Below the pieces are notes generated by a model. It saw nothing but the letters and a program-made list of their open reading frames with translations. It ran no database searches and was not told the DNA's origin. Shown piece after piece: positions 6,301-29,249 of a DNA stretch of 64,000 nucleotides. Each line of letters opens with the position of its first letter. Positions within the stretch are counted from its first letter, which is position 1. The position numbers and the translations under genes were made by a program. Source of the stretch: Balanoglossus misakiensis (taxonomy: Eukaryota; Animalia; Hemichordata). The DNA lies in contig CM082576.2 in assembly GCA_040954595.2 (NCBI GenBank), positions 17,159,028 to 17,223,027 of the forward strand, given 5' to 3'.

Positions 6301-7449
6301 ATTTTTTCTGTCGGAGTCGGATCTGAGCCGTTAATTGCTACACCGGTGCTACACTTGAAAACATTACAGTGAGAACTCAGAACAGGGTATATGTTGTTCT
6401 GTTTTCGGGTTTACTGGGGATTTCATTTTTTTAAGAATTGTTTTTCTCTTTTTGTAGGTATGGTCGTTGGGTATTACAAGAACTGCATGTATGACACAGA
6501 AGAAGAAGGCTATTTTGTTGAAAAAACTAATGGGGATACAAAAAGGTATACATAGCTTTATTTGTCATTTTTGACTTTTTAGATATAAAAAACAATATGA
6601 GAAGTTGTTTTTTGGAGACATGTTGAAACGTCAATTCCTTTATTTAACATCTGAAAAAACTAACAGAATAGCGGTAAATCTGAAGATTCTTCATTTTCCG
6701 ATGGAAATTAAATATTGAATGTACTATGGTCTGTATGTACCGGTACATATCAGCTGCGTTCTTCAGTGTTTTGGTATTTTATTTGTGGTGAACAAGTTAT
6801 TGTTAAGTTTCTTGTCCCATATCCCTGTAGTTGCACATTCAAAACAAGATTAGGGGGATAATTGCAGGATCAAAACACCCTTCAAAAAATGTAGGTGGCT
6901 GGCAAGCAAACTAGCTAATTACCAGGATCAAAACTTGATCAGTAATTATCTGCACACTTGTCACAAGCCATAAAGTCAACGGATTGGCTTGTTTTGTTAG
7001 TACTCTGATACCTGGTTCAATCACGCAGTGTGTAAATATTATTTTCTGTCGTTTTTTCTGTACTTGTTTGACTAAAATATGAAGTATGTTGGGCCGATGG
7101 CATAGAAATATTGAATAAAGACCATAATTCAAGATACCTGGTTCACACTGGCATGCAAATTTCCAGTTGATGGGCAACTTCAACGACTAGGTGCAGAAGT
7201 TCTAAAGTAAAAACATACTCAGAAAAACTTTTACTGGATGCCGTAATACCGGTACTGCTTGCCCGTCACCTGGAAATGACACCGCCGTGGGTCACATGAC
7301 CAGATCACATGATTAATAGTAAAGAATTCCTTCTATTGTGCATATCAGGTATTCCAGGAAGCATGTGATTCTTACCTCAGATCAGGCATCTGTCCACATT
7401 CATCCACAGAATGTGAAAACTCCAAGCGGTAATTCAGCTAGACGTTCAG
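318..7449 (+). CDS. 53BP1-like gene, open exons: low-complexity region plus tandem Tudor domain (5' end probably outside the window)
   Basis: Phase-consistent GT-AG exons 318-445, 1434-1495, 1869-1977, 2615-3197, 5562-5689, 6458-6545, 7349-7449. Spliced product contains LQPGVRVFARGQDEDFYPGVVVFEEKHNK/CIIGFEDGNIRSVSQKDIIVKEWLEKYSSVMAASTDEDFYEQG/MVVGYYKNCMYDTEEEGYFVEKTNGDTKR/YSRKHVILTSDQA, colinear with the 53BP1 tandem Tudor (GLRVVAKW..YFYSG..LLFDDG..VLGKDILL..VTALSEDEYFSAGVV..YSIEKEGQRKWYKRMAVILSLEQG). The first three exons are less certain than the last four. Confidence 0.75.
3559..4801. mobile_element. TTAA-flanked MITE ends enclosing a BEL/Pao retrotransposon fragment
   Basis: Left end agggacaaagtctctctc..ccattaattatgtttg (3559-3607) and right end tcttgtatcaaacataattaatgg..tttgtccc (~4736-4801) of the abundant MITE family. 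TTAA at 3555 and 4802. Confidence 0.75.
3608..4505 (-). mobile_element. BEL/Pao LTR retrotransposon fragment: integrase C-terminus, PPT and start of 3' LTR
   Basis: ORF 3792-4451 has WHFNPPTASHFGGVCERMIR, EAENIVNNRPLT, LTP, RWRKEYL, KW...GDIVLI, WP and RPISKLCVL. SDNGTNLAG lies just upstream. Polypurine tract at 3648-3665 is followed by TGTTGCAG at 3647, a truncated LTR. Confidence 0.9.
5234..5524. mobile_element. TTAA-flanked MITE (Kolobok-like termini)
   Basis: ttaa|agcgcgtagctcgtctcac ... gtgagacgagctaccggct|ttaa. Confidence 0.7.
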
Positions 7450-8218
7450 GTAAGACATACAACACCTGCACCTCGGAGCTAGATTTTAGCAGAAAAACAA
7501 AACATGAAATCCCTTGTAGCTGATGTATTTCATGCACTTCAGGATTTGTGCAGTTTGGTAAAAATTAGCCATGACCTAGCTTCATGGCACATAGGATTTT
7601 GTATCTTCAAAATAATTTCAGTCCCCTTTAGAATAGTGTATGATTTTTATGAGAACACCTAGAAAGATGACTGAATGACCCCCAACTCCTTATTAATAGA
7701 CTGTTGATACCGTAATGTCATTCACATTGTCACTACTACAAGAAAAGGATGTGCATACATGTACTTCTACATTCATGCTCAGTGCAGCTGACTCCGGCTT
7801 TTGACAGAGAGATTTTAACATCATTTGTGATTGCAGTACAGCTGGACTTTTATTTAAGGAGACTACGTATAATTTTCAAGAATTTTCATATTTTTTTTAC
7901 ATTTAGTTTCATTAGCTGTAACTATTCGCTCTGTTTTCAGCATTTTTATTTTGTGTATCTACTGTTGCGTAGTTTCTTGTTCAAATTCCAGAAAGATGAT
8001 GAAATGCCCAGCATTTACCTTATCAACACAACATATATGTGTATAGTCAGCATTGTTATTTTTGCAAAATTTGAATTCAAGTCCCAACTAGAATTCATTT
8101 GCAAAGCTGCCTACATCCAACTTGGACAGAGTTATGTTGGACAGAGCCATTTTGGGTTGTAGAATATAAAGGAACATGTTGTCTAATACATGTACATGTA
8201 TATATATCTGCCATATAG

Positions 8219-9472
8219 GAATGGACACATCGCTAATGGATGGTGCCAGCAGAGAGACCTCTGTGACACCTCACACACCTATGCCAGTGTTGCATCCACT
8301 GTCCCTGCTGTTAATCCAGCTTAGAAGGTCAAGCAAAAGGTCAGCACTATGGCCACCAAACAATGTCCACTTTCATCGGCAGTGGCCAACAAAATTTGCC
8401 CGTTTTTGTCACCTGTCCAAATGGCTCCAGTTCAAGAAGAGCCACATCCAATGCCAACTGACGATGGAGATCTCTTCACAAACTATCACATTTTTGTCTC
8501 CTCCAATTTCCCAAATTCTAGAGTTCACAATTTTCGACTCACTTGAACTGCAATTGAAAGTGATATAAAAGATACAAACTGATTATTGCCTGCCTTTGGA
8601 AAACAATACATACAGCAGACATAAACATTAACTCGGTTTGATTTCTTGTGATTTTCTTCATGTTTATAAACCATAAATCTTTCAAGCAGTTTCATTGAGG
8701 AATAAAAGTAACCCAGGGTCTGACTGGTAGAGTTTGCAAGAAAATTGTAATCCCTGTCACTACAGTCTGTAGGACTCTTGCATCAACAAATTTAGTCTTC
8801 AGTTTAAAGGGACATTAGGTCTTTCTCTCGCTGCCCTTTTTCCATTAATTAAGTTTGATACAAGACACCATTTATTTTAATGTACATGTGTACCGGGTAT
8901 ATGTAGTGAATAATCGTTCAACCACACAACTTCCATCCCGCTTGTATGATATGAGAGTAAAAATTCGCCCAAAATGAATAAATGGTAGAGACCAGTTATT
9001 AATTTTGTGAGTTTTTCACTCTCGTGTCTACAAGCGGGATGTAAGTTGTGTGTGGTCGAACGTTGATTCACTATATATCCACATGTACATAAACATAAAC
9101 GGTGTCTTGTATCAAACATAATTAATGGAGACAAGGGCAGCGAGAGAAAAAGACTTTGTCCCTTTAATAATTTATGTGTTAATCATCAGAACACAATTTG
9201 AGTATTGGTCTCTCAAATTTCTGTAAGTCTGATTTCAGTTATCTTAAAGTCTACATCTTACACTGTCAGAAAATAATTAATGATGTTTTTGTTTTTTACA
9301 GGGAAGTCCCTGCATTACGATGCGATAGTCACAGATGAAAGCTGTCCAGGTGACCTTGTTGAAAAGGCCGGACATCTAGACATCCCAGTGGTTAACTGTG
9401 ACTGGGGTATACAGTGCCTTATCAATGGAAGATATATGGCATAGACATCCTGATTATAAACATCAGGATTGA
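8219..9472 (+). pseudogene. Degenerate 53BP1-type BRCT exons
   Basis: PMPTDDGDLFTNYHIFVS and PAFGKQYIQQ resemble the 53BP1 BRCT1 start (PLPLNKTLFLGYAFLLT, PPFNKQYTES). They are out of frame with the phase-1 acceptor at 8219 and are interrupted by stops at 8322, 8544, 8580 and 8622. Exon from 9302 reads YDAIVTDESCPGDLVEKAGHLDIPVVNCDWGIQCLING (cf. [38 protein letters not shown]) with TAG at 9442; the HPDYKH tail is frameshifted (9446-9463). I could not find the intervening BRCT sequence. Confidence 0.75.
8808..9163. mobile_element. ~350-bp palindromic MITE family A (TTAA TSD, AG..CT ends, Kolobok-like)
   Basis: Near-fully inverted structure agggac..tctctcgctgccctttttccattaatt / aattaatgga..gggcagcgagaga..ctttgtccct. 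Other copies at ~1123-1361 (partial), 32049-32398, 37240-37583, 44122-44467, ~45350-45563 (partial) and 53285-53626. Confidence 0.9.
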
Positions 9473-11253: not shown

Positions 11254-13278
11254 ACTTCACTGTTCCAAAGTGCAGAAAACCAATATTGTTACTTTATAAA
11301 TTTACAGTTGAATTGTTATGGTTTTGTTATTGAAATTATTTATCATGTTATATTTAAATATGTTTATAATAAAGTTTATACAAGTATTTTATATCAGAGT
11401 AAATCAGCCAGTAGAAAATATATTCAAATCCTTTTCTGTCATCCCTCTTGTAACCGAGTCAGCTGGATTTTCTTTTTGTTGACAGAAACCTCCGTTGGTC
11501 AGACATTGTATGTTCTATCCTTGGATTTCCCCATCCCTCTTTGCTTGAACTTCAGCTTTGACTTCCAGTCAAACACAGGACACTCATTCTGTCTGACCTA
11601 ATTCTGAGGCTGAGTCTAATACCAAGTACTTCTGCAGTTGACTCTGATAACCAAGAGACATCGGAATGGCTCCCATTAGTTCCAGACGAGGAATACTGAT
11701 GCTTGTGAGTGGGGTGCCACTCGATTTTTTGCTGCTACCATATACAGGAAACCATCTGGTCTTTATGGGTGTACATGTACCTCATATAGAAACTGGCTAT
11801 ATTCATGTATGCGACCTTATTTCCTGACAGTTTTTGTATGGCTTCAGTTCAAATCCAAGAAAAAGTACCATATCCTCCTCAGTGTAACAGCGCCCTCTCT
11901 TTTTTGCTATATTTTATGGTTCAGGACCCTGGGCTCTTGGGGAATAAAGAATTTATAACTGCTCCAAGACTTAAATTGTGAAAAACTTAAACTAGGTACA
12001 GTATAGCTATATCTTTTGTTGCTTTTCAGTGTCTATAGTACATGTATCTAGTTGAGGGAAAAGAAAATGCTCGGCTAAAACATGGGAGCCTGACAACTCA
12101 AGTTTTTTTTATAAACTTACATGTTGTGTTCAACTGTATAACAACAAGATTTTTATTACTTTAACAAAATAAATAATAATAGTAATACCAATTTTCCCGC
12201 CACAATACAATACTGGACATATAAACAATAAATCAATCCATAACAAGGTCCATAGAACGGTAATACCGGTACATGTACAATAAACTCACTGAAAACCGCA
12301 CTGCAAGGTATTAGTGCGACAAGTGTCGTACCACAACTAAAAGTAGTGTATTACTCCGCCTGACAACAGGCAACTTGAATCGACTGATCAGTGCAGCACA
12401 ACCCAACCGTACCTGGTGAGTATTATAAGAATGGACGTTGTATTTTTAAAAGATGGACCTTAGGGTGTTTTGACATTAACTTGAGGCTTGTGCGAAAGCC
12501 GCGGGTGCATCATCGGCGATCAGGTGCACACGCCGGGGCCGTGCGATTGAGTCCATTGCGTGATCGGTATCCCATTGGTTACAAAAGTTTTCCGATGTCA
12601 TGAATATTTATGCCCCGTTCCCGAACCACAAGACGCAGATTCACCCCGTTTTCCGACTCCGGGTTCTCTACGCCTTCAGGCACGTTGAGGTCCTTAAACT
12701 CGGTGTGAAAAGCCAATAATTTTGACCGATAAACGTGATTTTCCAACCCAGTCTCGCGAAATCTGAATGAAATGTCGCCGTGCAATCAACCGCTGGTGCC
12801 GTTTTGAGGCACGACAGAACACCACATATATCCTGGGTTTTACTGAGCAAAATTGATGTAGCGAGCAGTTTATTAATTTATTCTACTCAACTAAACCACT
12901 AGGTAGTATTTCACTGATATCTTGATTTCGTCACTTGCAGTGATTCTGCCAGTTTTACCCTGTTCCCCACCGAGCACGGCAAATGGTCTAACTATTCCAT
13001 TTAACGTCACTACCGCGCCTCACGTTGGGAAGCAGATACACAGAATATACATGTACATGTACTATCAAAAAAAAAAAGAAGCATAGGGACCGTTCAGTTT
13101 TTACTGGGGGGGGGGGCACTTAAATTTTGAAATCCAAAAGGAGGGGGGTCATCTTTTTTTAAAAAAAAAACGTTTGGGGTGGGGGGGGGGGGGTCACATA
13201 CTTTCGCCACCAAACTTTTGCTTTTGTAGTTGTTTGTGCAACCTGATTCCTCTTTCTATAATGTATCATACTACATTA

Positions 13279-14099
13279 GGGACCGTTCAGTTTTTACGGC
13301 CGGGGGGGGGGGCGGCAAAATCCAGGGGGGGGGGGGGTTACTTAAATTTTGAAGTCCACAAGGGGGGGGGGTCATGTTTTTTGTTTAACGTTTAGGGGGG
13401 GGGGGTCACATACTTTTGCCACCGAACTTTTGCTTTTGAGTCCACAAAATTGCAGTTTCGCGCCCTTTATTTTACAAAATTTTCTAATGTACGAGGGGGA
13501 CACCCCCTCCCACACCCACCCCCCTTCATTATTCGCCACATTGCATTTATTCATTGGTTTGTCTAGTGTACCAGGGAAGACTTCTTGCCACCCGACCCCT
13601 ATGCTTACTTTGAGTGGAGTGGCAAAATTAAAATTTGTCCTCCCTAACATTGAGTTAATTTGCTTTTGAGTTCATTAAATTGCAACTTTGAGCACCGTAT
13701 TTGACAAAAATTTCTTATGTGGGAGAGCGACACGCCCACCCACGCCACTTTTCTTGTTTAACCGATTCTAGCAACTATTGTATTGACTTTTCATTTCAAT
13801 TTGTTCATAGATTTCTTTATTGCAACGATATACTATTATATACTTCAATAACACTTTAAGAAATATATAATTGAGGTGTGAGGAGCCTCATTCCCTTTAT
13901 TGCATACAGTGTACATAGGATCAGGACGGCGAATGTTTTGGGCGTGGGGGGGGGGTCATCATATTTTTGGGTCTGTCAAAGGGGGGGGGTCATCATTTTT
14001 TGGTCCTGGGTGAAGGGGGGGTCGGCCTGATTTTGAGAACCGATGACACAAACTTGCCGCCCCCCCCCCCCCCCCCTGCCGTAAAAACTGAACGGTCCC
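13279..14099. mobile_element. Harbinger/PIF-like non-autonomous element
   Basis: tta|gggaccgttcagtttttacggc ... gccgtaaaaactgaacggtccc|tta (3-bp TWA TSD). Partial duplicate of the left end at ~13086-13228; related short element at ~60251-60454. Confidence 0.8.
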
Positions 14100-14180
14100 T
14101 TACTTTCAGTTGGATTTTCTTTACCACTGAAAGCAAGATCTTAATGTGTTCAGTAAAGGGCAATTTCCTGTTGTTTTTAG

Positions 14181-17100
14181 ATGGAGTGCCCTTCCTTTTT
14201 GATAGGAGAGCTGGTGTGGGGTAAGCTGCAGGCTCGAAATCCTTGGTGGCCTGCAAAGATCGTGCCTCAGGAAGAGGTTAAGCAGAAAGGTGTGGTGGTA
14301 CAACCTAATCAAAGATGGGTACTTTGGTTTGGAGATTTTAGACATTCATTGGTAAGTCAAGATTACTGCAGCCTCCTTCAAGTGTAGCAAATGCTGTGAA
14401 AAGAAATGTGGTTGTTTAGAAAACATATGTCATCATTGATTTTGTATTTCAAAAAATATAAACCATTTGCAATATTGTTATATTTACAGGTGAAAGTAGG
14501 TACTCGTTTCATCTTTAAATCAGTTTCTTCCAGGATGGCATCAACAGGGGGAATATTTCCCCTTTGCCAGAATATTGGGGGGGGGGGGGGATTCCACTCT
14601 GGCATGGGGGAATGTTATATCTCTGACAGTGACATGTAAGTGACATCACTTAAAGAGGTGCTGGTCCCCCCTTGGCAAAGTGCCAGGGGTGCCAACATGT
14701 CAACAGGGGGTGAATCCCCCAATCCCCCCATCTGGATGAAACAGTCTGTTTAAATACAGCATTGTCAATGTGGTTAACACTTTGTATGTCACACAGTACA
14801 AGAGAAAAGTTAACCAACTGCAGTTGTTGTCCAGCTTTGCCAATGCTTTCTGCAGTTTCCTTGCTTCTGAAATAAAATTTAGAAAGTTGCTGTAAGAATG
14901 TGACATGATTCGGAGCGAACTGAATGAATATTGGTTCAGTTATATTGAGAGTTGTGATTGTTCTATCAAGAGAAAGTTTCTAATCACTAAACTGCAATGA
15001 AAATTAGCTTTTGAAATTAACGATAATATTTCCCGTGCAACAAATTTAATGAAACTTGCAATAATATTATTCTCACAGAACTCTGACCATACTGAAAAAT
15101 CTGTACATCAGCGCGTCATTATATTTAAATCCTGATTTGCAAATGTAACAATTTTCTTTACAATCAACTTTTTGAAAATATCTCATTCATGTAAATCACA
15201 ATTACTCTGACTACTGAATCACAAAAATGTTTCTCTCTGCTCAGGTTTCTACTCATTACATGAGGCAGTTCAAGACTTTCAATGGATCCATGAATAGGGT
15301 TGCCTATCAAAGGCGATCTTTATATAAGACTGCAATACACCAAGCCTTAGAGGTAAGTGTGCCAATGTGGATATGTCTCTAATGTTGCTTTGTACAGGCT
15401 GAGTGAGTGTAGACATTAGACATGAACATTATTACAAATTTCAATGTAGCAATGACCTAAGTCTTGATTAAAGGTATACAGTCACCTATGAAAATTGATC
15501 TTCAGTTACCAGGGCAAATTGAGATCTATCCAATCACAGATTTTCAGTGGGTGGCGCATGTGAAAAAAAGAGCGCCACCATATGCTCTTTAATACACTCA
15601 GATAAACCATTTCAGCCATATATGGGTGTATGTAAATTGGACTGATTGTATACCTGTAAGGTAGTGATAATACAAGTCATAGGTTACATTGTCTAGCAAT
15701 CCACAAAAAGTGATGTGACAAGGTGTCTTTTTAAAAAGTCTGCATACTTTTAAAGTGTTTTTCTGGTTTCCAAGTAAACTGCTTGTCTTTGGGAAAGCCT
15801 GTATTTCTGCGCTTGATGTAAAATATGGATGACATATTCTCCAACAGTTTGCTGTCAGTAGAGCCAAGGTGGAAATTAATCCCATGCCCATTTGCCCGTT
15901 GTCAAGTATTGCTTTGAAGACAAGGTATGAGGAACTGATGTGTTGGGCAAAGAACGACTTCCCTCCAGATGGTCCAGATTCTTTAATGCCATCCACAGGT
16001 AAGAAGAAAGTTGAGCCTTGGTAGATGAATTCACTGTTTGCTATGACAAGAGACTATGATATTGGTTGACTGTATATGATGGACATTAGATGGTATGATT
16101 ATGTAGATAGTTGACTATAGCTAGTCCAACCAAAGGATCTAAACAATTTGTGGTCTCACCAAGGATCAATCAATCTATGACTAAATCTGGTGCAGTCACC
16201 CCCTACATTTTGTAATTTGCTAATATTTTTGTTTGTTCAGCTTTGGAAAATATGGCAAAATAAGAGTGAACATAATGTTTGTGGTACCACGAGTTGAAGA
16301 CGAATGGTGACCTGGCCATGACGTTACTATTTTGTGCTCGGCTGAATAAACAAAAATATTTGTAAATAACATACTTATCTAATGCACAGGCCAAGTTTTT
16401 GTCATGTTTTTCACACTGAACCATGTTTTTGCCGTCAACTTGACGTGTTTAATTTGGTACTATGTTTTTTGTTGATATTTGTCCACTGACCACTACTTGT
16501 CAATCATCTGCTGTCACCATGGTGATAGTGTTACACTTGTTGTGTATGCATTGATGCACATCGACAGGCAGCAGGCAGGACTGGTTGGAGACTCAAAATG
16601 ACTTGTCCAGTCACAAAGTCTCACTAAATTATCAGTTCTAAATTGACATTACCCGTAGATGCGTGTTATCATGAGGTAGAAATGACCAGAGTACAAATCC
16701 CGGTAGTTTCTGTTCCGCATTGACAAACGGGTCTTGTGCATGTGGTAGCAGGAGTTTGTTTTGTTTTGCATGTGTGCATGTCATATATCACTTAGGCAGT
16801 GTTATATAACACACTAAACTGTTGTACATTGAACAATGTTAATCATTATGTTGTACTTTAACTTGTATCAAATGTTTTTACACATAAATGGTCATATTGT
16901 GTTACAATTATCTCTTCCAGAGGAGACCATGGCAACAGATGGGGCAGATGAAGCTAGCAGTGCAGGTGATTCTCGTCGACAACGGGAGTTCGTAAAAAAA
17001 AGTAAGAAGTGTATAAAGTTGTAGTCTGAACCTCTTTCAGGCGTGCTGAATGATCTGTACTGGGTTTAGGGACTCTCGCAATCCAGATATGCCTGTTCCA

Positions 17101-20100
17101 TCTGATTTCAGAGATAACTCCCTGTGGCTTAGATGCATGTCTATGTGGACATTAAAGGTATACGGTCACCTATGGAAAATTAGCTATTGTTACCATTGCA
17201 AATTGAGATCTAGCCAATCACAGATTTTCAGTGATGTGGCACACGCGAAAAAAAGAGCGCCATCATATGTTCCTTAGAAGCCCTCAAATACTCCATTTCA
17301 GCCGTATATGGTCGTATGTAAGTTGGAGGTGACTGTATACCTTTAATGATTTCTGGTAGGTTCTAATGTGGCTAGTTGACACCAACGTTCAAAATATTTT
17401 CATGTTTTCACAAATCAGGAATGATGTCAGTCAAACTTAGTTCACGGAATACGCTAGTACCGGTACATTCATAGGCACATTAAAGGCCCATGAGCCTCAA
17501 CTGGATAAAAGAAATAAGCTTTAAATAATTTCAGATAGGATTTTAATTTTTGTTTTTTTATTATATTTAAAACAATGTGACAAAAATAGCAATATTGTTC
17601 TCTCGACATATATTGTGGTGCACCATCCCTTGTGGAGAAACAGAAATCATGTGTTGTTAATATGTAAACTCCATTTTGAATGAATAATTCAGTTTTAATA
17701 ATGATGACCAATTCTGTTTTGTTCTTTTGCACAGTGAAAAGAATAAAGGAGATCAGAAAGATTAGAGTGAAGGAAGTTAAAAAACGAAAGAAAGAGTTAA
17801 AGGGTATGTGAGAGGATTTTTGTTTCTTTCATTAATACTGCATGTACTGCGCAACAGTAGAAAGATCAGCAATGGTAAATATTTACATCACACATGTTTT
17901 AATCTAATGTAAGGTAATCAAATTATACACCACTTTCAAGAGAGGAAGAACATACTTTGGGGGATATGAACACAGACCTTATCAGACAGATTATCACATA
18001 GCAAGAGAGATAGTACACAGAAACATTTCATTTCAAACAAACATTGTATTTCAGTGATGGCTCTTAGGTAGAACATTATGTGCACCAAGCATTGCATTGT
18101 AATACATTTTATCTGGTCCTACAGATTTTTGCCTGGTTTGTGGGGATGAATCTGTGGTAACTGGACATCCATTGTTTGAAGGAGGTCTTTGTGAGGATTG
18201 TAGGGTATGTAATGGGGGGTGGGGGCAACTAAAGCTTGTTCAATTTTTAGGTGTTGTTTTTTATTTATACGCCTTAATATTATAATAGAAGATATTTTCC
18301 AACTTAGGCCTGTTCAATAAAAATGGCCTGATCTTAAGTCAACCAGTGAGTTAAGAAATGTATGTCAGCTACCTGTAGTCGAATGAAAAAAACTAGAAAT
18401 CAAAAGAAACTAAATAACTCAAATAATATCAACGTTTAGTGACTGACTGCAAATCAGTATGGGATTCTATCATTGACACAGAATTACTATTTCTCATTTT
18501 AGAAAGATTTCTTGAAGTCCGCTTTTGTGTATGATGAAGATGGCAGTCGGGTAATATGCACAGTTTATTTTTTTTATTTTTGTTCTAAATTTGTTTTGTG
18601 TCCATATGCCATTAAGGTGCAGGTTATCATGTGTAGTCAAAGTAACTTTACTTCTTTTGAGGATTTGCAGATTTGCGGTTGATTAATAGAATCTCACACT
18701 CCCAAGGACCTGGGATCATATTTCTCACATAATACACTTCGTGCCATTGAATAACATTTACACGCATAGCAATAGAACGCTTTGTCATCCAATCAGCGCT
18801 CACATCACATAGACCTTTCGATTCTGTGAGAGTGTGGGATCAATTTGTTCTCACGCTCTGATCCCACATCTCCTTAAAGTGTTTTTCCCATATCTTGCAG
18901 TCTCTCTGTTCAGTCTGTTCTGAAGGCAAGACAACCTTAATCTGTGATAAACATGGCTGTGATAACATATTTTGCACATGCTGCTTGGATGTTCTAGTTG
19001 GTCCTGGAACTTCGCAAAAGGTATGTGTGGATACTGTAGGCATAAGAATTATTTGATAAGGCTGCATTCACAAACACCTCTTGAGGGGGGGGGGGAGAAT
19101 TGAGGGGGGAATTTGAAAACATTGAGGGTACAAATGTATGTAAGGGGGGGATTGAAATAATTTAGTGACTGAAAGGGGGGGACTTGAAAACTTTGAGGAC
19201 TAAATATTTATTACGAGTCCACAAAAATGCAGTTTTGAACCCTTCATAATACAAATTTTTCTCACACCTGCCCCCTTCATTCATCAACACCCTTCAATCA
19301 TTGGCTAGTTTATCTAATGGCCCAGGTCAGGGGACTTGCCCCCCCCCCCCCCCCCCCCCAATGCTATCTTTGAGCGGCGAAGGTTAAATTTGTCCTCCCC
19401 AACATACCGGTAGTTGGGTTAATTTGCTTTTGGGTTCATTAAAATGCAGCTTTGAGCTCTGTATTTTATAAAATTGTCTTACGTAGGAGGGGAACACCCC
19501 CTCCCAAACCCACCCCCTTCACTTCTCTGTTTACAATGTCTGTCAACACAGAATACAAGTACTTACAAAATAAAAAACAATGTTCAGTTTTAATACCCAC
19601 TGATGACGGAAAACATCAGTTTCAAATTCTTTACATGGGAGCGCTGTTTTTTTTTTTACAAGACAGATAGGTGATGAGTTTTGCTGTGTGAAAGAAAATG
19701 TTCAAACAGCGCATATATATATATAATTCACCATCCCCACCTGATGGGGGGGGGGGATTTCAAAATTTTAGCAGTTCGGAAAGGGGGGATTTGAAAATAT
19801 TTCGGCATGTGAAAATTAACGGTAAAAAAATTTGAATTCTCCTGCCCCCCCCCCCCCCCCCCCCCCCTCCTGAGGTGTTTGTGAATGCAGCCTAAAGTTT
19901 ACTGGTATGTGGCCAGCTAATGAAGAATGATGAGAGAATTTGGCCAAAGTAATTAGACTCTTTGGTTTGCTTCCACTCAAAATTCTGAAAGGGGGGCCGG
20001 AGTGGGTAGAAGGTTATAAAATACACACACCAAATTTAACTCAAAACAATCTTCCTTCATTCATTTTCTCATATGCTAGTTTATTTCACTTGAGTGCTGG

Positions 20101-23100
20101 ATGGCTAGACCACCACCAACAAGCTGGGGGAAGTCCCTGCATATCCTGTTCGAGTATTGTATTGCAGTGACCAAGTTAACAATTAAGCTACGCTCATGAT
20201 GTTCTGGTCAGGACACTCACCAACATGCACGTCCTGTATGTCCACTGTGCCTGTACCCGCTTCATCGCCACCATTACCATGATTCGACATGAAGCTTTCT
20301 TTGCATTTAGATCAGTGTAAATTGCGGTGTCTTCACATGTGATTTGAGTGGCTGTTCAGTGCGGTGCCCCGACCCTGGACCCCCCACCCCTCAACAGTGT
20401 CTCAGAAAAGGGGGTGGCCCAGGGCCGCTCTCACCTTTTCACACGTGACACGTGGCTGCCCAAGGGGTGGCCTAAACCTCACACGTGAAAGCGGTATATG
20501 TCTAAAAATAGCACAGTGGGATCAAAACAACCACTAGTGCGTGCGAACTTTTGTGCTCAAAATTTAGCTAATTTTGTTTGATGAATATTGAACTGGACAT
20601 GTGTACGACGCAGGCTGAAAGGAGTTTGGCGCAGGAGTTTCTGATAAATGTGTCCAAAATACACACACAACCTCTGAAGAGCCATATTAATCTTCATATT
20701 ATTTGTGGCAGGAATTGCAAAATGAAGAAGACCCATGGATATGCTATTTGTGCAGACCAAAGGATGTGCATGGGCTCTTGAAACGCAGGAAAGACTGGAG
20801 ACAAAGGCTTCATCAGATGATGAAGGGTGATGTGGATAGTGCACGGTTTCCAAACAACTTTGTCTATCAACTTGTTCCTGTGAAAGAGAGAAAGCGACTG
20901 AGGGTTTTGTCTTTGAATGATAATATTGGGGCAGGTTAGTACTGCAGTAGTTGCTAGAAAAGTTGGAATCAGGATAGTGAAAGGTCCACTGTCTGTAACT
21001 TTTGGTTATTTCAGGAATTTCATTCTGTGTATCAACTATGGTTTCTTGTTTGGCTCCCAAGCACGGGACTTATTGAAAATCTTCTCAACATAGCCCATAC
21101 TATGTGCACATTAAAAGAAGACAGCAAAGTACTAGTCTTTGTAAATGTCTAAAATTGTATAACAATTGTTCAAATGATTTGTCTTGCAAAGGCCGAGTGG
21201 TACTGAAGAATTTGGGATTTGACATTGCTTATTACTATGCCTCTGAGGATGATAAGACCAAAATGCAAGCTGTCAACATAGCATCAATACAACACTCTGA
21301 ATTCATCACACATGTACCTGAGATCAGACTGATCACTTTTGAAGACGTAAGTTTATGACCTTTTTCCACATTTTTTGTACATTGTAAAATAAAACCATAC
21401 ATTAAAGGTACATGAGCTGCAACTGGATAAAGAAAATAAAATTTCAAATAATCTCATAATATTATATACTTTTAATTATGTCTATTAAATGATATTTCAT
21501 GATAATATATAAAGCTCAACTCTTATTTCTGACAAAATGGCCAAAAATTAAAGAAAAACGAAAACTCCTGCAATTTTTTAAAAAAAGTGCAATATTGCAA
21601 TGAAAAAGGAAAATATAATGTGTCAGCAGTGTACATTTACTTCCACGAGCTCAAGTGGATGAGATCGTGTTTTTTTTATAAAGTTTCATAACCGGAAATG
21701 CAACATTTTCGTTGTTTTTTGCATTTTCCCACGGTGGCGGCCATAATCGCTTGCGGCAAAGCTTTATTATTTATCTGGTTAGAACTTGCATATGCACTAA
21801 TATTTAGGGTTTATAATGCCTGTGTATAGTTCACTGCCTTCAACTGCATGGACTAGTGGTAGTACAGTTTGAAACAAAAATTTTGATAATTTTCCCAAAA
21901 GTTGCAGCTTATGTACCTTTAATGGGCGGGTGGGGGTGGGGTTGGAGGATGCATATAATGCACTGTATATCTAATGTTTGATTTTGCTTTAACCCTTTCC
22001 AAATCATGGTTTGGCCCAAATGAATTGTTTTCTATGGAAAATTTTGACCTCTACCGGTATACAGAGAACTGGGGTGAAAGAGTGAAATGAAAAAGTGAGT
22101 GGATACCACTATTTTATTTGCTTGTAATGTAGTCAAGTGAAATCTGAATTGGGAAATTATTGCGTGGTCTGTCTATATGAATGTAATGTGATGTGTTTTT
22201 ATTTCTGTAGCTGGAAAAGTGGCAACCAATTGATCTTCTGATTGGCAACTGTCCTGTCGGTGATATCTTGGAAGGCAATCATAGTAAGAGAGCAGTTCCT
22301 GCTTATAGTTATGGTTTACGTGAGTATAATTTTTTTTTAACAGTCACTTACATCTACCTGTAACTGCCACCAAAGTAAAAAAAATGGCTGCTGTCTGGCT
22401 GCAGGGCACCACCAGCAGCAAAGGTAAGAGTGGACTATACAGATAATGTCCTTTACTTTTATTTATAAAGTCTTAGCGATGTAACTTTATGGACAGGGTG
22501 TCAATTAAAGTACCGTATATACATGTATAGCCTCAAAGTTTTGGAGGCTTTACATAATTTCTGTGGTAGGCCTGATTTGTATTTGTGCAGTTTGGCCCAC
22601 AGTGAATGTTAACCCTTTCATGGCCATATAGTTGAGTCCAAACCCATTGTTTTCTATGCTAAAGTTGGACCTCTATGCAGGGAACTAGGGGTGAAAGGGT
22701 TAAACAAGCAAAAGCTGACAGCTACGTGTATACGGCCAGTTAATCTTGTCTGTTACTTACTATGAGTGTCTTTTGTCTTAATTTTCCACAAACAGATCCT
22801 GCTGTTGCCCGGGCCATGGACTTTTTCAGGATTTGTGATCAACTGGCCAAAACTAGGGATCCCAACCGACCCTTCTTCTGGTTGTTTGAAGCAGAAAGTG
22901 ATATCAGTGTGAGGGATAGCAACACAATTTCCAATTTCCTCAAGGTAAATGCATAAAATAATGAGAATTTAAAGAGTTATAAGCAGCATCTCCCTTAGAC
23001 TATTTTATTTTCAATTAATATATGCATGGCCAATTAACTCATGTTCTAGGAGTATATATAATGAGTAATGTTTTCTTTGTGAGAAGATTGTTTAACCCTT

Positions 23101-26100
23101 TCTGGCCTGGCTTTCTGGGAACGTACCCAAATTTCTCCTATACGGGTATGTAGGATATCCGGCCAGAAAGGGTTAAGTATCTTGTCACATACATAGCTCC
23201 GTGTACCATAGTATGACGTCAGACGTAAGGAAAATTTGCACCAAGCGTTATTGTAATTACCATCCCTCTGATGTCACCAAACGGAACTATTTTAAACTTG
23301 TAAACAAAGTCCCCTTAGGGCGACAAAATTCAGTGTAATTGTTGGTTTTATTTCGATATAAAAACATAAGCAAAGATAAATAAAATGTTTCGTATGTGTA
23401 AATATGGACGATCGACGATTTAGTTTTACCTGTGTACATTTTTATCGCACCAACCGGCACCAAAACTGTCGCGAGGTCGGCAGTGCTGAGCCAATGTCGT
23501 CGCGTTGTCGAACGAGCAACAGGTACAAATTTGAGTATTCGCAAAAAAAATTGATGCGACGATTAGAGCAAAACGGTCTAATCTTAAAGCAAAAGGCATA
23601 AGAAAGGTTTCCTGCTCCAGTGAAACCTTGACGGACGATGAAATCCAGCTGATGCACGACAGACGGGTCATCGCCAAAACCAGAATCGTCCAGGTCGTGA
23701 CCTGAGTCACCTGACAGCTAGACCGCATAACATCGATCTTCAATTTTGCACAAAATAGTTCCAAATTTTATCGCAACCACAAAGATTTATTTGAAAATCA
23801 AAATTAGCGGATCTATGTATGTGATAAACATATAATTCCCCCGTATTCCTCACTCGTGTACCTGCGTCGCAAACTCGTGATTCCCCGTATAGCTATATCC
23901 CGTCTCGCCTGCGGCTCGGAGGGATACGGCCGCTATATGGGGAATCACTCGTCCGCGACGCAGGCACACTCGTTCGAAATACGGGGGTCTTATATATAAA
24001 AATTTCATGTAGCTGTTTCAAAAATTACATGAAAAAGTCAAACTGCTGACTGTTTGGCGTAGTTTATTATGGTTGCCAGATATTGTATGCAAAAATATAT
24101 ATACAAAGGTGGCTGTTCTAGTGTTTTCACAATGTTTTACCTGAATGTTTCGTGACAGTAAAGCAATGCAAATAATTTGAAATTGTTCCAAAATACAAGT
24201 AATGCCTCATGTGGTAAGAATAATCGTATTTAGTATACCCCTAAATATTTGTCTCAAAATTAGGATGAACCATTGGAATTTGATGCCAAGTTTGTATCTG
24301 CCATTGACAGAAAGAGACTCTTCTGGGGAAATTTACCTGGTATGCACAGGTAAGAGATTTTAAGACAAATGTCTCACATACATGGCTATGGAATATGTTA
24401 ACCATATGCTGTACTAGGGAGTCCCTACCCTAAAATTAATCCCTGACCCTTTTTTTCCATTGTAGACCAGGTTTCACTAAAATGGATTTCAGCAAGAAGA
24501 CATTGCAAGACTGTTTACAACCGAATGTAGCGAGAGAAGCAAAGGTATCCATAAAACAATGAGATCCTTTTTTCTCAAGATGACAATAATAATAATAATA
24601 ATAATAATAATATTTATAATGCAGGTAATCTCCAAATCAAAGCTGGATGCGCCAGAATGACAAAATAAACTCAGGAGGAGGAACTATTGAAACAACATCA
24701 TTGGAAACAAGGGAAAATGAAAGGGGAAAAAGTCAAAATTGTTCTATAAAGAGATAGGACTTGAGTGAACGGTGAAAGGAAAGGATTGATTATTTGTCAA
24801 GATGACAGAAACTTTGTGAAATTAGAATCTGTATGTTTGTCACTTCTGCTTCCCCATTTAAAAAAAAAATCTCTGCATCTATTTTCTATCAGATGGAGAA
24901 AATAGACATCATCAGGTTCAAGAATATCCAGACGCAAACAGATTTGCCGGTGATTAATCACAAAAATGAAGATGATGAACTCTGGATCACAGAGATCGAA
25001 AGGTGTGTGCGCCACTTTCCTATTGATGGAATAAACGTCCAAATTGTTGAGGATAAGGCATTCTATTTTTTTTCTGGTGCAACTTGAGAAAAGTAATTTC
25101 CATTGTAACTAAAAACTCCCATTTCTATATCCTTCAAATCGATGAAATATTCCTCGGTATTTCTGAAGTTTTAACAAATTCAATGTGGTAAGTTTTTGTA
25201 TGCAGTCAAAACCAGAATTGGTGGTTACCGCATCTGTACAGTGGTGCCACTAGTCTAGAATATCACTTTGTTACAGTGCAGTGCCTATGCAATTTACATT
25301 GTAAATGTGCATTAATTGACCTGTCTATATAGGCCACCCGTTTATAAAGTTTAGAAAGTCCCTTGACTAGTCACTATAGAAGGTTTGACTAAAATACATT
25401 GTATAATCCAATACTTATACAAAGTCACATCAACTTTGGTGAGTGGATTAGTTCCTGCTGATGAAGTCCACCTGTGGAACTGTAATTATGAATTGGGTCT
25501 AATTCAATGATTGCCAGTTTGCAGTGAATGATCTGTCTCACCAACTTTGATTGTTGGACAGAATTATTTCTGCACTGTAACTGTATGTAAGCCAGATCAC
25601 CCCAACACTAACCATACACAAGTCTTTCATGAAGTATGTTTCTTGAACTTTTGGCTGAGTGAAAAGATTCAAAGACATATTGGACAAGACCACAGGCCAA
25701 TATGTCACAAACCATATACGGTACATTGGCCATGTTGAGTTTGTAAATTCATGGAATGCAAAAACAGCCATAAAAGTTTTCTACCCACATTTGAGTTGGA
25801 ATCAAACCATAGTGGTGAAAGGGTTAAGACACTGTTAGCTTACTGAAGTCTTTGCTGTGAAGTTGAATATAATTTTCTTTAACGAGCCTTCTGAGAATTG
25901 TTGTCATAAATAGGTATGGTTTTACTTTCGAGATTTTGTGAACAATCTCCAACTCTGAATGTAGTATAGTGAAACCTGTCATTACGGACACCTCTCTATT
26001 GAGGACAGATTTTTTGGTCCCTGAGGTGTCCTTAATAGACAGGTTTCAGGTATTAACACATATGTAATAGGCCCGAAATTTCAATAGTGCTGAAGGATTA

Positions 26101-28143
26101 TGTGCATGGTGAGCTAGTTATCATCATGTTAAAGCCTCTAGAGCTGCCACGTTTTGCATTATTTTCATGATTTTATTTTCCAACTTAAATCGGTCCATCT
26201 AAATAAGCTTTCTGATAGGTATACATGAACACCTTATCGATGCCTGATTGTGGCTGTATGTAGTGATTTGAAAACACTATGTATTAAAACGGTGACGCAC
26301 CAATTTAATCAGCCTCTATATAAACAGTACACAGCTATTGTGGTATCCGTCGCCAAGAGATGACAAACTTATGCAAATACAAGTAATAAGGCTTTATGAT
26401 GAGGATTTAAAAGGATAATTGAAGTATTTTATTGTGGGAAAAAATATGTGAAATTTGGCAGCTATAATAGGGGCTTTAACAATTTTCTGTGATTAGGCAA
26501 AGACTGTTACCAACACAGCCAGAACGCAACACCCTCATTAGCATATTATCGCCTATCCAGATCAGGACCGTTACATTTTGAATGGCCGCTCACAGACCGT
26601 TTTTTGAGGCATTTTCAACTTGCCGTAACTTTCGCTAGAGTGCATTATTTTAAATCATGTAAAAGCGAAAACCTCTCCTGACATGTCTTCTTTCGTGCCA
26701 TCCAAATGGATTTTAGAATTATTTACTGAAATATTGATATTATGGCGATTTTCCGAAGGTTACTCTAGCGGTCGAAAATATGGTCCAGTTTTTCGCTTCC
26801 AGTATCCATAATATGCCCCGGAAAGTTTACATATTTCAGGGTTATGTGGGTTTTTCTACACTTTAAATGACCGTGTAAAAAAATTTGGTAAAGATACAAG
26901 TGTAACGGTCAGTTCAAGAATTTTCGCTAAAAAACGGGTGATTTTACCCGGAAGTCGTCACATGACCTACGTGACCCGAGGTTTCCCGGCCGCTGATGTA
27001 AACACCAGTAAATACGCAATTATCCAAGTCGCTCTTTGCAGTCTCTGTTTAACGCGATTGTGGAGTTGAAAGAACCGGACTGTTTTTTTTACAAACGTTT
27101 GTGTTGTCGCTCAATAATGTTTTTCTTTTTGTGAAACACCACATTCGACGAAATCTGTATTTTATTCTTCCAAAAGCTGTGGTGTGGAGGCATCGCAGGG
27201 TTACGCCGCGCCGTAAGCACACAACCCTGCAATTCATACACGCAGCCGCCAGTGCTAACGTAGTTTAGGCAGATCTCGATGATCATCGATAATTTTCAAT
27301 AATAAAAGGTAGTCTAAATAGCCGATATACAATGAACTCATTTCCAACATGTGCCTTTATCAACACTACATGTACATGTGGGACGTAAACAATATACACA
27401 CATTCTGCACTGAACGCTCGACAATGGGTTACGCTGTAAACTCCCGCCATTTCCCACTGAAAATGATCTCGTCACAGCAAAAAGTAAACAAATTAAAACC
27501 GTTATAACTTCGTTAATATGCCCCGGAAAGTATACAAACTTCACAGTAAGAAGGACCAATGCCTATATTTTATAAATATGTCATTTTATTTGTACAACAA
27601 GTTGGTGTAACAGTCCGTTCAAGAATTTAGCGAGGCATGTTTCCAAAACGTGAATTTTCATTACTCTGTACTTTTCGTTATTTCTCTGAAACTACTGCAT
27701 TAATCATCAAAAATACTCCTTGAGATATAGTTCGATATATGTACTATCAAATAAATCCAACAAAAATACTCAGAACGATCGCCATTAATAGCGGTTGATG
27801 ACCAAAGTTGGGGAAAAAAATGACCCAATTCAGACACCCTTTTCGGGGCTCAGTGCAACGGTCTCGTTTTTCGAATCAGATTCTGCATTTGCATATGTTA
27901 ATGAAGGCGTTGCGTTCTGGCTGAACATGAATTATTTGATAATTAATTTTTTTTTGTACGTTTCCTCTTTACATCGATCCAAACAGGCTGGTTGGTTTGC
28001 CTGCACACTACACGGATGTCTGTTGTGGGAAAGTGAGGGATAAGATCCAGTTTGTGTGCGAATCCTGGAGTGCGCCCATTCTGCAGCATTTGTTGTCACC
28101 CCTCAAGGAATACTATGCCTCTGCCAAGCCTGAGCTTGCTTAA
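14181..28143 (+). CDS. DNMT3-like: DNMT3-family protein (PWWP-ADD-C5 MTase fold), 631 aa, predicted catalytically inactive
   Basis: 16 phase-consistent GT-AG exons: 14181-14351, 15245-15352, 15848-15998, 16921-17001, 17735-17803, 18125-18204, 18503-18550, 18901-19020, 20712-20934, 21192-21346, 22211-22319, 22796-22944, 24264-24349, 24466-24544, 24893-25002, 27987-28143 (1896 nt, no internal stop). PWWP GELVWGK..PWWP..RWVLWFGD; ADD CLVCG..HPLFEGGLCEDC..YDEDG..CSVC..PWICYLC; MTase RPFFWLFE, RKRLFWGNLPGM, LWITEIER, PAHYTDV, SWSAP..LSPLKEYY. The ATG directly follows an AG acceptor, so upstream exon(s) probably exist. Confidence 0.93.
15472..15657. mobile_element. TTAA-flanked MITE family (aggtatacagtcacc...)
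   Basis: Second copy at 17156-17342: ttaa|aggtatacggtcacc ... ggtgactgtatacct|ttaa. Confidence 0.75.
19060..19892. mobile_element. Harbinger/PIF-like non-autonomous element
   Basis: taa|ggctgcattcacaaacacctc ... gaggtgtttgtgaatgcagcc|taa. Confidence 0.8.
21406..21918. mobile_element. TTAA-flanked MITE (aggtacatgagctgcaact...)
   Basis: ttaa|aggtacatgagctgcaact ... agttgcagcttatgtacct|ttaa. 3' part repeated at ~58628-58769; related ends near 17484, 29820 and 45064. Confidence 0.8.
22610..22703. mobile_element. ~90-bp piggyBac-like MITE family (ttaa|ccctttca ... tgaaaggg|ttaa)
   Basis: TTAA plus CCC..GGG termini. Related copies at ~21989, ~25780, ~42808, ~45251, ~49414 and ~51608; a variant at 23092-23176. 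Confidence 0.7.
23190..23998 (-). mobile_element. Non-autonomous element with terminal long hairpin (CGAG/GCA type)
   Basis: CpG-rich insert in an AT-rich intron, ending in hairpin 23838-23987 with apex ctcgcctgcggctcg. Boundaries approximate. Confidence 0.55.
24586..24835 (-). mobile_element. 3' end of a LINE (CR1/L2-like) with (TAT)n tail
   Basis: (AAT)n microsatellite at ~24586-24611 abutting a 3'-UTR-like segment. Family assignment is by resemblance only. Confidence 0.35.
26516..27923. mobile_element. 1.4-kb non-autonomous DNA transposon with 4-bp TSD
   Basis: aaca|cagccagaacgcaacaccctcattagcatat ... atatgttaatgaaggcgttgcgttctggctg|aaca. Confidence 0.8.
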
Positions 28144-29249
28144 ACATCTGGTCTTGGAGCTGCCGAAGATGACTGCCCTTTACGTCATGAGTAAAGTTTC
28201 TATGAAACTCCTGTGACAAGTCTGCAAATGTTTTTTGCCCATTGCCCATGATCCTTTACTGTGTCAAGGGTCAATGATACTTCAGGCATCGATAAAACAT
28301 TTATTGTCACGATTAAGATTCAAGACTAGTGTCTTGTTTGACCAAAAGTCAAACTGGGTTTCCATTTTGTCATTTTATTATCCTTCCCAACCATTGTTAC
28401 AAAAAACATTTAGTTTTCAGTATATTTGGATAAACCTCTCACTATCGCCAGTGCCTACAAATCTCGACGCTTACTCATTGTATACAAACCTGCTCACAAC
28501 ACTAGCCAGCTACTTCCTTTTTATATTATAGTGCATTAGAAATAGGAGCAAGAGTGTTCTTGTAGCTATTTTCCCTTATGTCTAGACTCTGCCTTGTTAC
28601 TATTAATTTAAAGTGAGTTTTATAAAATGGTGTTGAAAATTTTTGACTTTTCTAATGCCATATATAAAGTATCTTTGTTTTGGCCAATTGCCAGTACAGT
28701 CAGTTAAACCTGTGTTTAATAGTGGCCATGTGTCCTCTATGCATTCAAAACTTGTCTATAGTGGCCACTTTGTTACAGTCCCTGTGTAATTTACATGTGC
28801 ATAAATGGACCTGTCTATAAAGGCTTAGTTTAGGGGTCCCTTGACTGGCCACTATAGACAGGTTTGACTTTACTGGCAGTGGATTGATCCAACCACATTG
28901 TGGAATGGTTTTCCGACATTTTGTTTCTGTTGTGATGGCTTAGACCATAATTTTTAACACTTGTAGTTTGGTCTAACCCCACATCATTGCCTTAACTGAT
29001 TTTGTCCACTCCTTGCATTGTGGATAATGTCATTGGCAATGAATGCGTTTGGTTTTTAATAATCATGAAGTTGAAAATTTCTTGTTCATAAAGATTTCAG
29101 TTTTATAGTGTTATAAACAAGTTTGGTTTTTAATAATCATGAAGTTGTTGAAATTTTCCTGTTCATAAAGATTTTAGTTGTTTAAGAATGTTCTAAAAGA
29201 GTCTATAAGTTATATGTACATTTATATATTTCACAGAGTTTATGTTTTT

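What the first reader, a model, noticed from the sequence alone, without database searches (positions are those of the whole stretch)
14181..28143. Intact but catalytically dead DNMT3 paralog: candidate invertebrate DNMT3L-like pseudo-methyltransferase that keeps PWWP
Seen: 16 exons splice to an uninterrupted 631-aa ORF with canonical splice sites. The chemistry motifs are changed relative to DNMT3A/B: motif I SLFDGIATG to SLNDNIGAG (20910-20934), motif III VGDV to VPEI, motif IV GGSPCND to GNCPVGD (catalytic Cys is GTC Val at 22256-22258, two substitutions from TGC), motif VI ENV to EAE (22888-22896), TRD loop TITTRSNS to IIRFKNIQ, motif X LLGRSW to FVCESW. Structural motifs (RPFFWLFE, RxRxFWGNLPGM, LWxTExER, HYTDV, PLKEY) and the ADD zinc-ligand pattern are kept. 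Established: these motifs carry SAM binding and catalysis; DNMT3L is the known dead cofactor, described from amniote vertebrates, and lacks PWWP. Inference: loss of active-site residues across several separate exons with an intact fold and frame points to a selected non-catalytic chromatin reader or regulator, probably evolved independently of DNMT3L.
Basis: partly seen in the sequence, partly recalled or inferred. Interest (0 to 1): 0.9.

Follow-up and report, generated by a model that had tools for sequence, protein, structure and literature searches.

The report
Acorn-worm family of dead DNMT3s
This intact 16-exon gene encodes a relative of the enzyme that starts DNA methylation but lacks its catalytic cysteine, groups with three equally defective genes of the acorn worm Ptychodera flava, and likely acts as a chromatin-reading scaffold that arose separately from the known dead helpers of vertebrates and water fleas.

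Summary
Observation confirmed: 16 GT-AG exons give a stop-free 631-aa PWWP-ADD-methyltransferase-fold protein with the stated motif changes. New here: its closest relatives are three Ptychodera flava genes that also lack the catalytic Cys and share derived residues (V758E, G890C, M761I, V672I). The four form one clade (100/99; 99/97 without the methyltransferase domain), sister to the canonical-looking Saccoglossus DNMT3, while DNMT3L nests in vertebrates; an AU test does not formally reject union with DNMT3L (p 0.09). So this is an old, selected acorn-worm pseudoenzyme lineage, expanded in P. flava. Corrections: the kind is known (Daphnia DNMT3.1; the scan also noted such genes in two other genomes); 'paralog' is unproven; this copy has lost PWWP cage residue F303; F732 of the DNMT3L-type interface is lost in all four. 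I favour a stand-alone chromatin reader/scaffold over a DNMT3L-style stimulator. No active P. flava DNMT3 appeared in two searches, which leaves open that these replaced the enzyme. Expression untested. New variant of a known kind; interest 0.55.

The parts
14181..14351 (+). Exon 1 of the model: PWWP N-half (ATG directly after an acceptor-like AG; may be an internal exon or follow a 5' UTR exon). W306, W330, D333 kept; F303 position not aromatic
   Evidence: (PF00855 E 2.9e-08)
15245..15352 (+). Exon 2: PWWP helical part; 36 codons, phase 0/0, same as the exon skipped in P. flava isoform X2
15848..15998 (+). Exon 3: end of PWWP
16921..17001 (+). Exon 4: acidic linker
17735..17803 (+). Exon 5: basic pre-ADD helix
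18125..18204 (+). Exon 6: ADD GATA-like zinc finger
   Evidence: PF17980 E 3.2e-10
18503..18550 (+). Exon 7: ADD acidic H3K4 pocket (D529, D531 kept; Y533S, Q534R)
18901..19020 (+). Exon 8: ADD PHD finger
   Evidence: PF21255 E 2.1e-11
20712..20934 (+). Exon 9: end of ADD, linker, altered motif I (F640N, G642N)
21192..21346 (+). Exon 10: motif II (E664 kept) and altered motif III
22211..22319 (+). Exon 11: motif IV with Val (GTC, 22256-22258) in place of the catalytic Cys; rewritten catalytic loop
22796..22944 (+). Exon 12: FF-interface helix (F732M) and motif VI EAE (E756 kept, clade-wide V758E)
24264..24349 (+). Exon 13: motif VIII (R790, R792 kept)
24466..24544 (+). Exon 14: start of target-recognition region
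24893..25002 (+). Exon 15: rewritten TRD loop and motif IX
27987..28143 (+). Exon 16: RD-interface region (R882V, R885K), altered motif X (G890C, R891E), stop
12380..13000 (.). Candidate promoter/first-exon region: CpG-rich (o/e 1.16 at 12501-13000 against 0.32 in the coding sequence) with a splice-donor-like site after 12415; inferred only

Best explanation
The gene is a member of an old acorn-worm (enteropneust) lineage of DNMT3 proteins that lack the catalytic cysteine, and it most likely works as a methylation-independent chromatin reader and scaffold rather than as a DNMT3L-style stimulator. Shown: intact 16-exon frame; Cys710 absent; one clade with three P. flava genes that share the same derived active-site residues; ADD zinc ligands and the D529/D531 pocket kept; F732 and the DNA-contacting catalytic and TRD loops rewritten. 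Inferred: catalysis was lost once, before this species and P. flava parted; the ADD domain would bind H3 tails unmethylated at K4, the PWWP would add nucleosome/DNA contact (with H3K36me2/3 reading likely in the P. flava copies, doubtful in this one), and the dead fold, its pocket refilled with conserved acidic residues (E758, E891), would serve as a stable platform for repressor or chromatin partners. My odds: non-catalytic 0.95; translated and selected until at least very recently 0.88; origin independent of DNMT3L 0.9; stand-alone reader rather than stimulator about 0.6.
For: Frame and splice sites intact on a terminal branch of 0.89-0.97 substitutions per site; in a neutral simulation only 9 of 1000 frames stay stop-free at 5% nucleotide change. 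Invariant columns kept: PWWP 18 of 21, ADD 29 of 34, methyltransferase 77 of 128, like the P. flava copies (74, 75 of 128 for the two complete ones). 3 of 50 aligned relatives share the E-x-E motif VI, all from P. flava. Clade support 100/99 on the whole protein and 99/97 with the methyltransferase domain left out; sister to Saccoglossus DNMT3 at 94/96 and 95/92. F732 is Phe in all 7 active references, in Saccoglossus and in one DNMT3L (Tyr in the other) but M/L/V/H in the four dead genes. One P. flava locus has five RefSeq isoforms, suggesting transcript support (inference). Second allele: 3 replacement against 4 silent changes in exons 11-15, pN/pS 0.18, p 0.03. Precedent for catalysis-independent action: Daphnia DNMT3.1 mutant changes 2770 genes with little evidence of a methylation role (PMC8016896 passages).
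Against: No expression data for this gene. AU tests do not reject a clade of the dead genes plus DNMT3L (p 0.09 in both). Polymorphism signal is weak: against silent plus intron sites p 0.22; 0 of 6 indels in exons p 0.19. This copy has further lost F640, G642, F303 and Y533 that P. flava copies keep, which could mean relaxed selection. F772, R729, R736, W860, H873, Y874 and D876 are kept here, so some oligomer surface may survive. Interface roles of F732/F772 are recalled, not read in a paper here. Presence or absence of an active partner is unknown. No structure of the window's own spliced protein was predicted.
Confidence: 0.5

Rival explanations
1. Convergent DNMT3L/DNMT3B3-type cofactor: it would pair with an active DNMT3 paralogue of the same animal through a co-evolved interface, and target or stimulate de novo methylation.
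For: Same logic as DNMT3L and as proposed for Daphnia DNMT3.1 with DNMT3.2 (PMC8016896). ADD intact; F772, R729, R736 kept in this copy. A P. flava isoform (X5) skips the whole PWWP and so has DNMT3L's architecture. Saccoglossus keeps a canonical-looking DNMT3. The window's CpG depletion (o/e 0.63, coding sequence 0.32) shows a methylated genome, though DNMT1 alone could explain it.
Against: F732 replaced in 4 of 4 dead genes with a neighbouring one-residue deletion; R771 and E774 variable. No active P. flava DNMT3 among 119 hits or the 120 listed of 1954 hits, though both searches are leaky.
Confidence: 0.3
2. The lineage is old and was selected, but this particular copy is now decaying (recent pseudogene or relaxed duplicate).
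For: Longest terminal branch of the clade (0.89 against 0.28-0.63); loss of motif I F/G, PWWP F303 and ADD Y533 that P. flava keeps; 3 replacement polymorphisms in 533 bp; unclear 5' end.
Against: No stop, frameshift or broken splice site; as many invariant columns kept as in P. flava copies; replacement polymorphism below silent.
Confidence: 0.12
3. Still an enzyme with altered chemistry, for example using the Cys two residues upstream (position 708) or acting on another substrate.
For: E756, R790, R792, D641, E664, W893 kept; a Cys lies at 708 here and in one P. flava copy; P. flava copies keep the FDGI of motif I.
Against: Position 708 is Ser in 2 of 4 dead genes; C710 is V/F/I/H; N757, V758, D686, G890 changed in all; this copy lacks F640 and G642. 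No PF00145 hit in any P. flava copy.
Confidence: 0.05
4. A true, ancient DNMT3L orthologue retained from the deuterostome ancestor.
For: AU test does not reject the union (p 0.09).
Against: Best trees separate them by two supported branches; window gene alone with DNMT3L is rejected (p 0.006); substitutions differ (E-x-E against V-D-N); DNMT3L reported absent from all fish lineages (PMC7618676); PWWP present.
Confidence: 0.03

Closest known systems
Ptychodera flava 'DNMT3A-like' RefSeq models XP_070555444.1, XP_070580695.1, XP_070579569.1 and isoforms
   Same: Best relatives (42.5% over 624 residues for the first); same clade; no catalytic Cys; shared V758E, M761I, V672I, and G890C/R891E where the region is present; matching PWWP exon sizes
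   Different: They keep motif I FDGI and the PWWP aromatic cage, lose P709 and R790, and have long N-terminal extensions; they are machine-annotated only, and no paper on them was found
Daphnia magna DNMT3.1
   Same: Invertebrate DNMT3 with a diverged methyltransferase domain; PWWP present by implication (the paper says the other copy lacks it); PMC8016896 passages
   Different: Arthropod; keeps motif VI and lacks five others; has a named active partner candidate (DNMT3.2); not in my trees, separate origin inferred from the nesting of this clade in hemichordates
Vertebrate DNMT3L
   Same: ADD plus dead methyltransferase fold
   Different: No PWWP; keeps the FF-interface aromatics; different substitutions and loss of the RD region; nests among vertebrate DNMT3A/B
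Mammalian DNMT3B3 (inactive splice isoform)
   Same: PWWP plus ADD plus inactive catalytic domain (PMC9409253 passages)
   Different: Made by exon skipping from an active gene; here the gene itself is rewritten by point changes with all exons kept

Membership tests
DNMT3 family (architecture) | PWWP domain | tested here: met
   PF00855 E 2.9e-08 above cut-off; best PDB matches DNMT3B/3A PWWP
DNMT3 family (architecture) | ADD domain with 12 zinc cysteines | tested here: met
   PF17980, PF21255; 12 of 12 Cys kept
DNMT3 family (architecture) | C-terminal DNMT3-type methyltransferase fold | tested here: met
   Exon matches to DNMT3A/B chains; 39-41% identity; predicted model of a P. flava relative matches DNMT3 structures (alignment-driven, not the window's protein)
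Active DNMT3 (C5 methyltransferase) | Motif IV Pro-Cys nucleophile | tested here: not met
   Val at 22256-22258
Active DNMT3 (C5 methyltransferase) | Motif I F-x-G SAM-binding loop | tested here: not met
   F640N, G642N
Active DNMT3 (C5 methyltransferase) | Motif VI E-N-V | tested here: not met
   E-A-E; Glu kept
Active DNMT3 (C5 methyltransferase) | Methyltransferase activity | not testable with these tools
   needs assay
DNMT3L | Lack of PWWP | tested here: not met
   PWWP present
DNMT3L | Phylogenetic placement with DNMT3L | tested here: inconclusive
   Best trees separate them; AU p 0.09 for clade union, 0.006 for window gene alone
DNMT3L | Intact hydrophobic FF interface | tested here: not met
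   F732 replaced, F772 kept; residue roles recalled
DNMT3L | Binds and stimulates an active DNMT3 | not testable with these tools
   No active host DNMT3 available
Enteropneust dead-DNMT3 clade (defined here) | No Cys710, E-x-E motif VI, C-E-x-W-S motif X, one clade with P. flava copies | tested here: met
H3K36me2/3-reading PWWP | Cage F303, W306, W330, D333 (PMC13031684) | tested here: not met
   3 of 4 kept; F303 replaced with an insertion; all 4 kept or conservatively changed in P. flava copies
Pseudogene | Stops, frameshifts, broken splice sites, neutral divergence | tested here: not met
   expression not tested

The most novel reading that the evidence does not exclude
In this acorn-worm lineage the DNMT3 orthologue itself gave up catalysis: no active de novo methyltransferase is left, methylation is carried by DNMT1 alone, and the dead gene was kept and multiplied (three copies in P. 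flava) as a stand-alone family of H3K4me0/H3K36me chromatin readers - a natural separation of DNMT3's enzymatic and non-enzymatic functions in a deuterostome.
Probability: 0.35. Interest if true: 0.8.

Novelty: new variant of a known kind. Interest (0 to 1): 0.55.

Why it matters
It adds a third, apparently independent origin of non-catalytic DNMT3 (after tetrapod DNMT3L and Daphnia DNMT3.1), conserved between species and expanded, in the sister lineage of echinoderms. Surveys that count 'DNMT3A-like' annotations would score P. flava as having three de novo enzymes where the three models seen are dead. If no active copy exists, acorn worms become a direct test of what DNMT3 does without catalysis and of whether DNMT1 alone can sustain a deuterostome methylome.

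Tried and rejected
No whole genome is held, so other DNMT3 copies of the host could not be sought. Word-index searches with single exons found nothing; this is insensitivity, not absence. No RNA holder listed. The protein atlas did not answer. Absence of an active P. flava DNMT3 was examined and judged only a weak hint: 4 known active proteins that would pass the exon-9 threshold were hidden in clusters, and 2 of 8 full-length active invertebrate or lamprey proteins scored under the list's 351-bit cut-off. The upstream Tudor-like and BRCT exons were considered as an N-terminal part and rejected: no relative matches them and a stop ends them at 9443. No upstream coding exon was identified; three donor-like sites, none with an in-frame Met. 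P0004 is a repeat artefact and was dropped. Assembly error rejected (and sharing with P. flava). Cys708 as shifted nucleophile rejected as unconserved. No complex prediction was run: no active partner from the same host was available. dN/dS against P. flava not computed: only proteins were available. Literature: no paper joining Ptychodera with DNA methylation and DNMT (0 papers), 2 unrelated papers for Ptychodera plus DNMT3 (listing only), nothing on hemichordate dead DNMT3 (listings); the library lacks most subscription papers and bioRxiv supplements are closed.
Full report
Observation. I rebuilt the gene from the window: 16 exons, 15 GT-AG introns of 116-2984 bases, 1896 nt, 631 residues, no internal stop. 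Pfam finds PWWP in exon 1 and the two ADD fingers in exons 6 and 8; exons 9, 11, 12 and 16 match human DNMT3A/B chains first. In human DNMT3A numbering (anchor recalled, alignment ends at 912): F640N, G642N, D686E, C710V, N711G, N757A, V758E, G890C, R891E; kept are D641, E664, P709, E756, R790, R792, W893. Contigs of DNA runs X1 and X2 show the same letters at motifs I and IV, X2 also at VI; the runs are one sample and may be the assembly's source, and exon 16 was not checked. The 5' end is open: the ATG follows an acceptor-like TAG, relatives have 147-690 more residues, and a CpG-rich stretch with a donor-like site lies at about 12400-13000.

Relatives. A full HMMER scan with exon 9 gave 119 proteins. 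Of the 50 that align to residue 480 or beyond, 3 share the E-x-E motif VI and lack Pro-Cys; all three are Ptychodera flava RefSeq models, from three loci (two contigs; 44-57% identical to each other). The best is 42.5% identical over 624 residues, 509 bits against about 400 for active enzymes. A search with one of them listed 120 of 1954 hits: four P. flava entries without PF00145, then 116 canonical DNMT3s. The host is therefore probably another acorn worm (inference).

Origin. In a 30-row tree (LG+G4; 29 proteins chosen from the hits for taxon spread; fragments, most teleost duplicates and the artefact P0004 left out; Daphnia not available) the window gene is sister to the three P. flava genes (100/99), these four are sister to Saccoglossus DNMT3 (94/96), and DNMT3L lies inside amphioxus plus vertebrates (98/99). 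A 19-row mixture-model tree without the methyltransferase domain gives the same (99/97, 95/92, 94/98). Against this, AU tests do not reject the four plus DNMT3L as one clade (p 0.09 in both); the window gene alone with DNMT3L is rejected (p 0.006). Five derived residues are shared at columns invariant in 7 active enzymes (V672I, V758E, M761I, V830I, G890C) and 28 invariant columns are changed in every dead gene. The Saccoglossus model has canonical motifs I and VI and a second fragment with canonical VIII and X is in the supplement of PMC8330077; its motif IV is not in the model, so its activity is inferred. Dnmt3l is reported only in tetrapods (PMC7618676 passages). One loss of catalysis within hemichordates is the simplest reading.

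Selection. The terminal branch is 0.89-0.97 substitutions per site, yet no stop or broken splice site exists; neutral decay leaves 9 of 1000 frames open at 5% nucleotide change. PWWP keeps 18 of 21 and ADD 29 of 34 invariant columns, the catalytic domain 77 of 128. A second allele differs at 26 single-copy sites in 22050-25150 (7 rows in a repeat dropped): 3 replacement, 4 silent, 19 intronic; pN/pS 0.18 (p 0.03), not significant against silent plus intron sites (p 0.22); 0 of 6 indels are exonic (p 0.19; 2 repeat rows dropped). This is modest support; expression is untested.

Mechanism. ADD keeps all 12 zinc cysteines and D529/D531, which bind H3K4me0 in DNMT3A (PMC13031684 passages). Of the PWWP cage F303, W306, W330, D333 (same paper), this copy lacks F303; the P. 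flava copies keep an aromatic there. The catalytic and TRD loops that contact DNA are rewritten. DNMT3L binds DNMT3A through the hydrophobic FF interface and DNMT3A pairs through the R885-D876 RD interface; F732 (role recalled) is M, L, V or H in the four genes, R885 is K, K or I, D876 is D, N or H. Conserved new acidic residues at 758 and 891 suggest a pocket fixed in a non-catalytic state (inference). I therefore favour a stand-alone reader/scaffold acting without methylation (0.5 for the whole statement) over a co-evolved DNMT3L-type cofactor (0.3). A predicted model of the P. flava protein P0254 shows folded PWWP, ADD and Rossmann-like domains and matches DNMT3 structures, but it leans on an alignment of active enzymes and is not the window's protein.

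Is there an active partner? Unknown. None from P. flava appeared, but both searches miss known active proteins (4 hidden in clusters; 2 of 8 under the cut-off). I give 0.35 to the bold case that the orthologue itself died.

Prior knowledge. Daphnia magna DNMT3.1 lacks five of six catalytic motifs, is compared with DNMT3L, and has a knockout phenotype (PMC8016896, passages; found and named in the scan's earlier notes). DNMT3B3-7 are inactive isoforms (PMC9409253 passages). PMC6976628 (passages) lists one DNMT3 in amphioxus; PMC8330077 (passages and supplement) covers Saccoglossus only; PMC8821070 (passages) added nothing. No description of the hemichordate clade was found. The scan noted dead DNMT3 genes in two other genomes; sequence look-ups found no look-alikes.

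Verdict. Real, selected, non-catalytic DNMT3 of a previously undescribed acorn-worm clade: a new variant of a known kind, interest 0.55; 0.8 if the lineage proves to have no active DNMT3.

Noticed in passing
window 2539-9443 (+): Separate upstream gene with two Tudor-like exons (resemblance to 53BP1 recalled; no Pfam hit) and a terminal BRCT_3 exon (E 1.4e-11); looks like a short or partial TP53BP1-like gene; the splice model was not resolved.
   Followed up: partly
window 3792-4505 (-): Retroelement integrase-region fragment (DUF5641, E 4.8e-26) inside an intron of that gene.
   Followed up: partly
window about 33200-53300 (-): Receptor tyrosine kinase gene with Ig, FN3 and kinase exons, tail to tail with the DNMT3-like gene.
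   Followed up: partly
window 58896-60258 (-): TRAF-like gene (coiled coil plus MATH, E 3.9e-17).
   Followed up: partly
P0254, P0138, P0011 (P. flava locus): RefSeq isoforms of one dead copy skip one or both PWWP exons, so a PWWP-less, DNMT3L-like architecture is annotated as a splice form.
   Followed up: partly
P0142 (unnamed Logan protein, 1856 aa): A canonical DNMT3 with several repeated PWWP-like segments in its N-terminal part (four matching stretches; sequence).
   Followed up: no
window 12000-28400 introns: Introns hold several very high-copy short repeat elements (contig depth up to 1e5).
   Followed up: no
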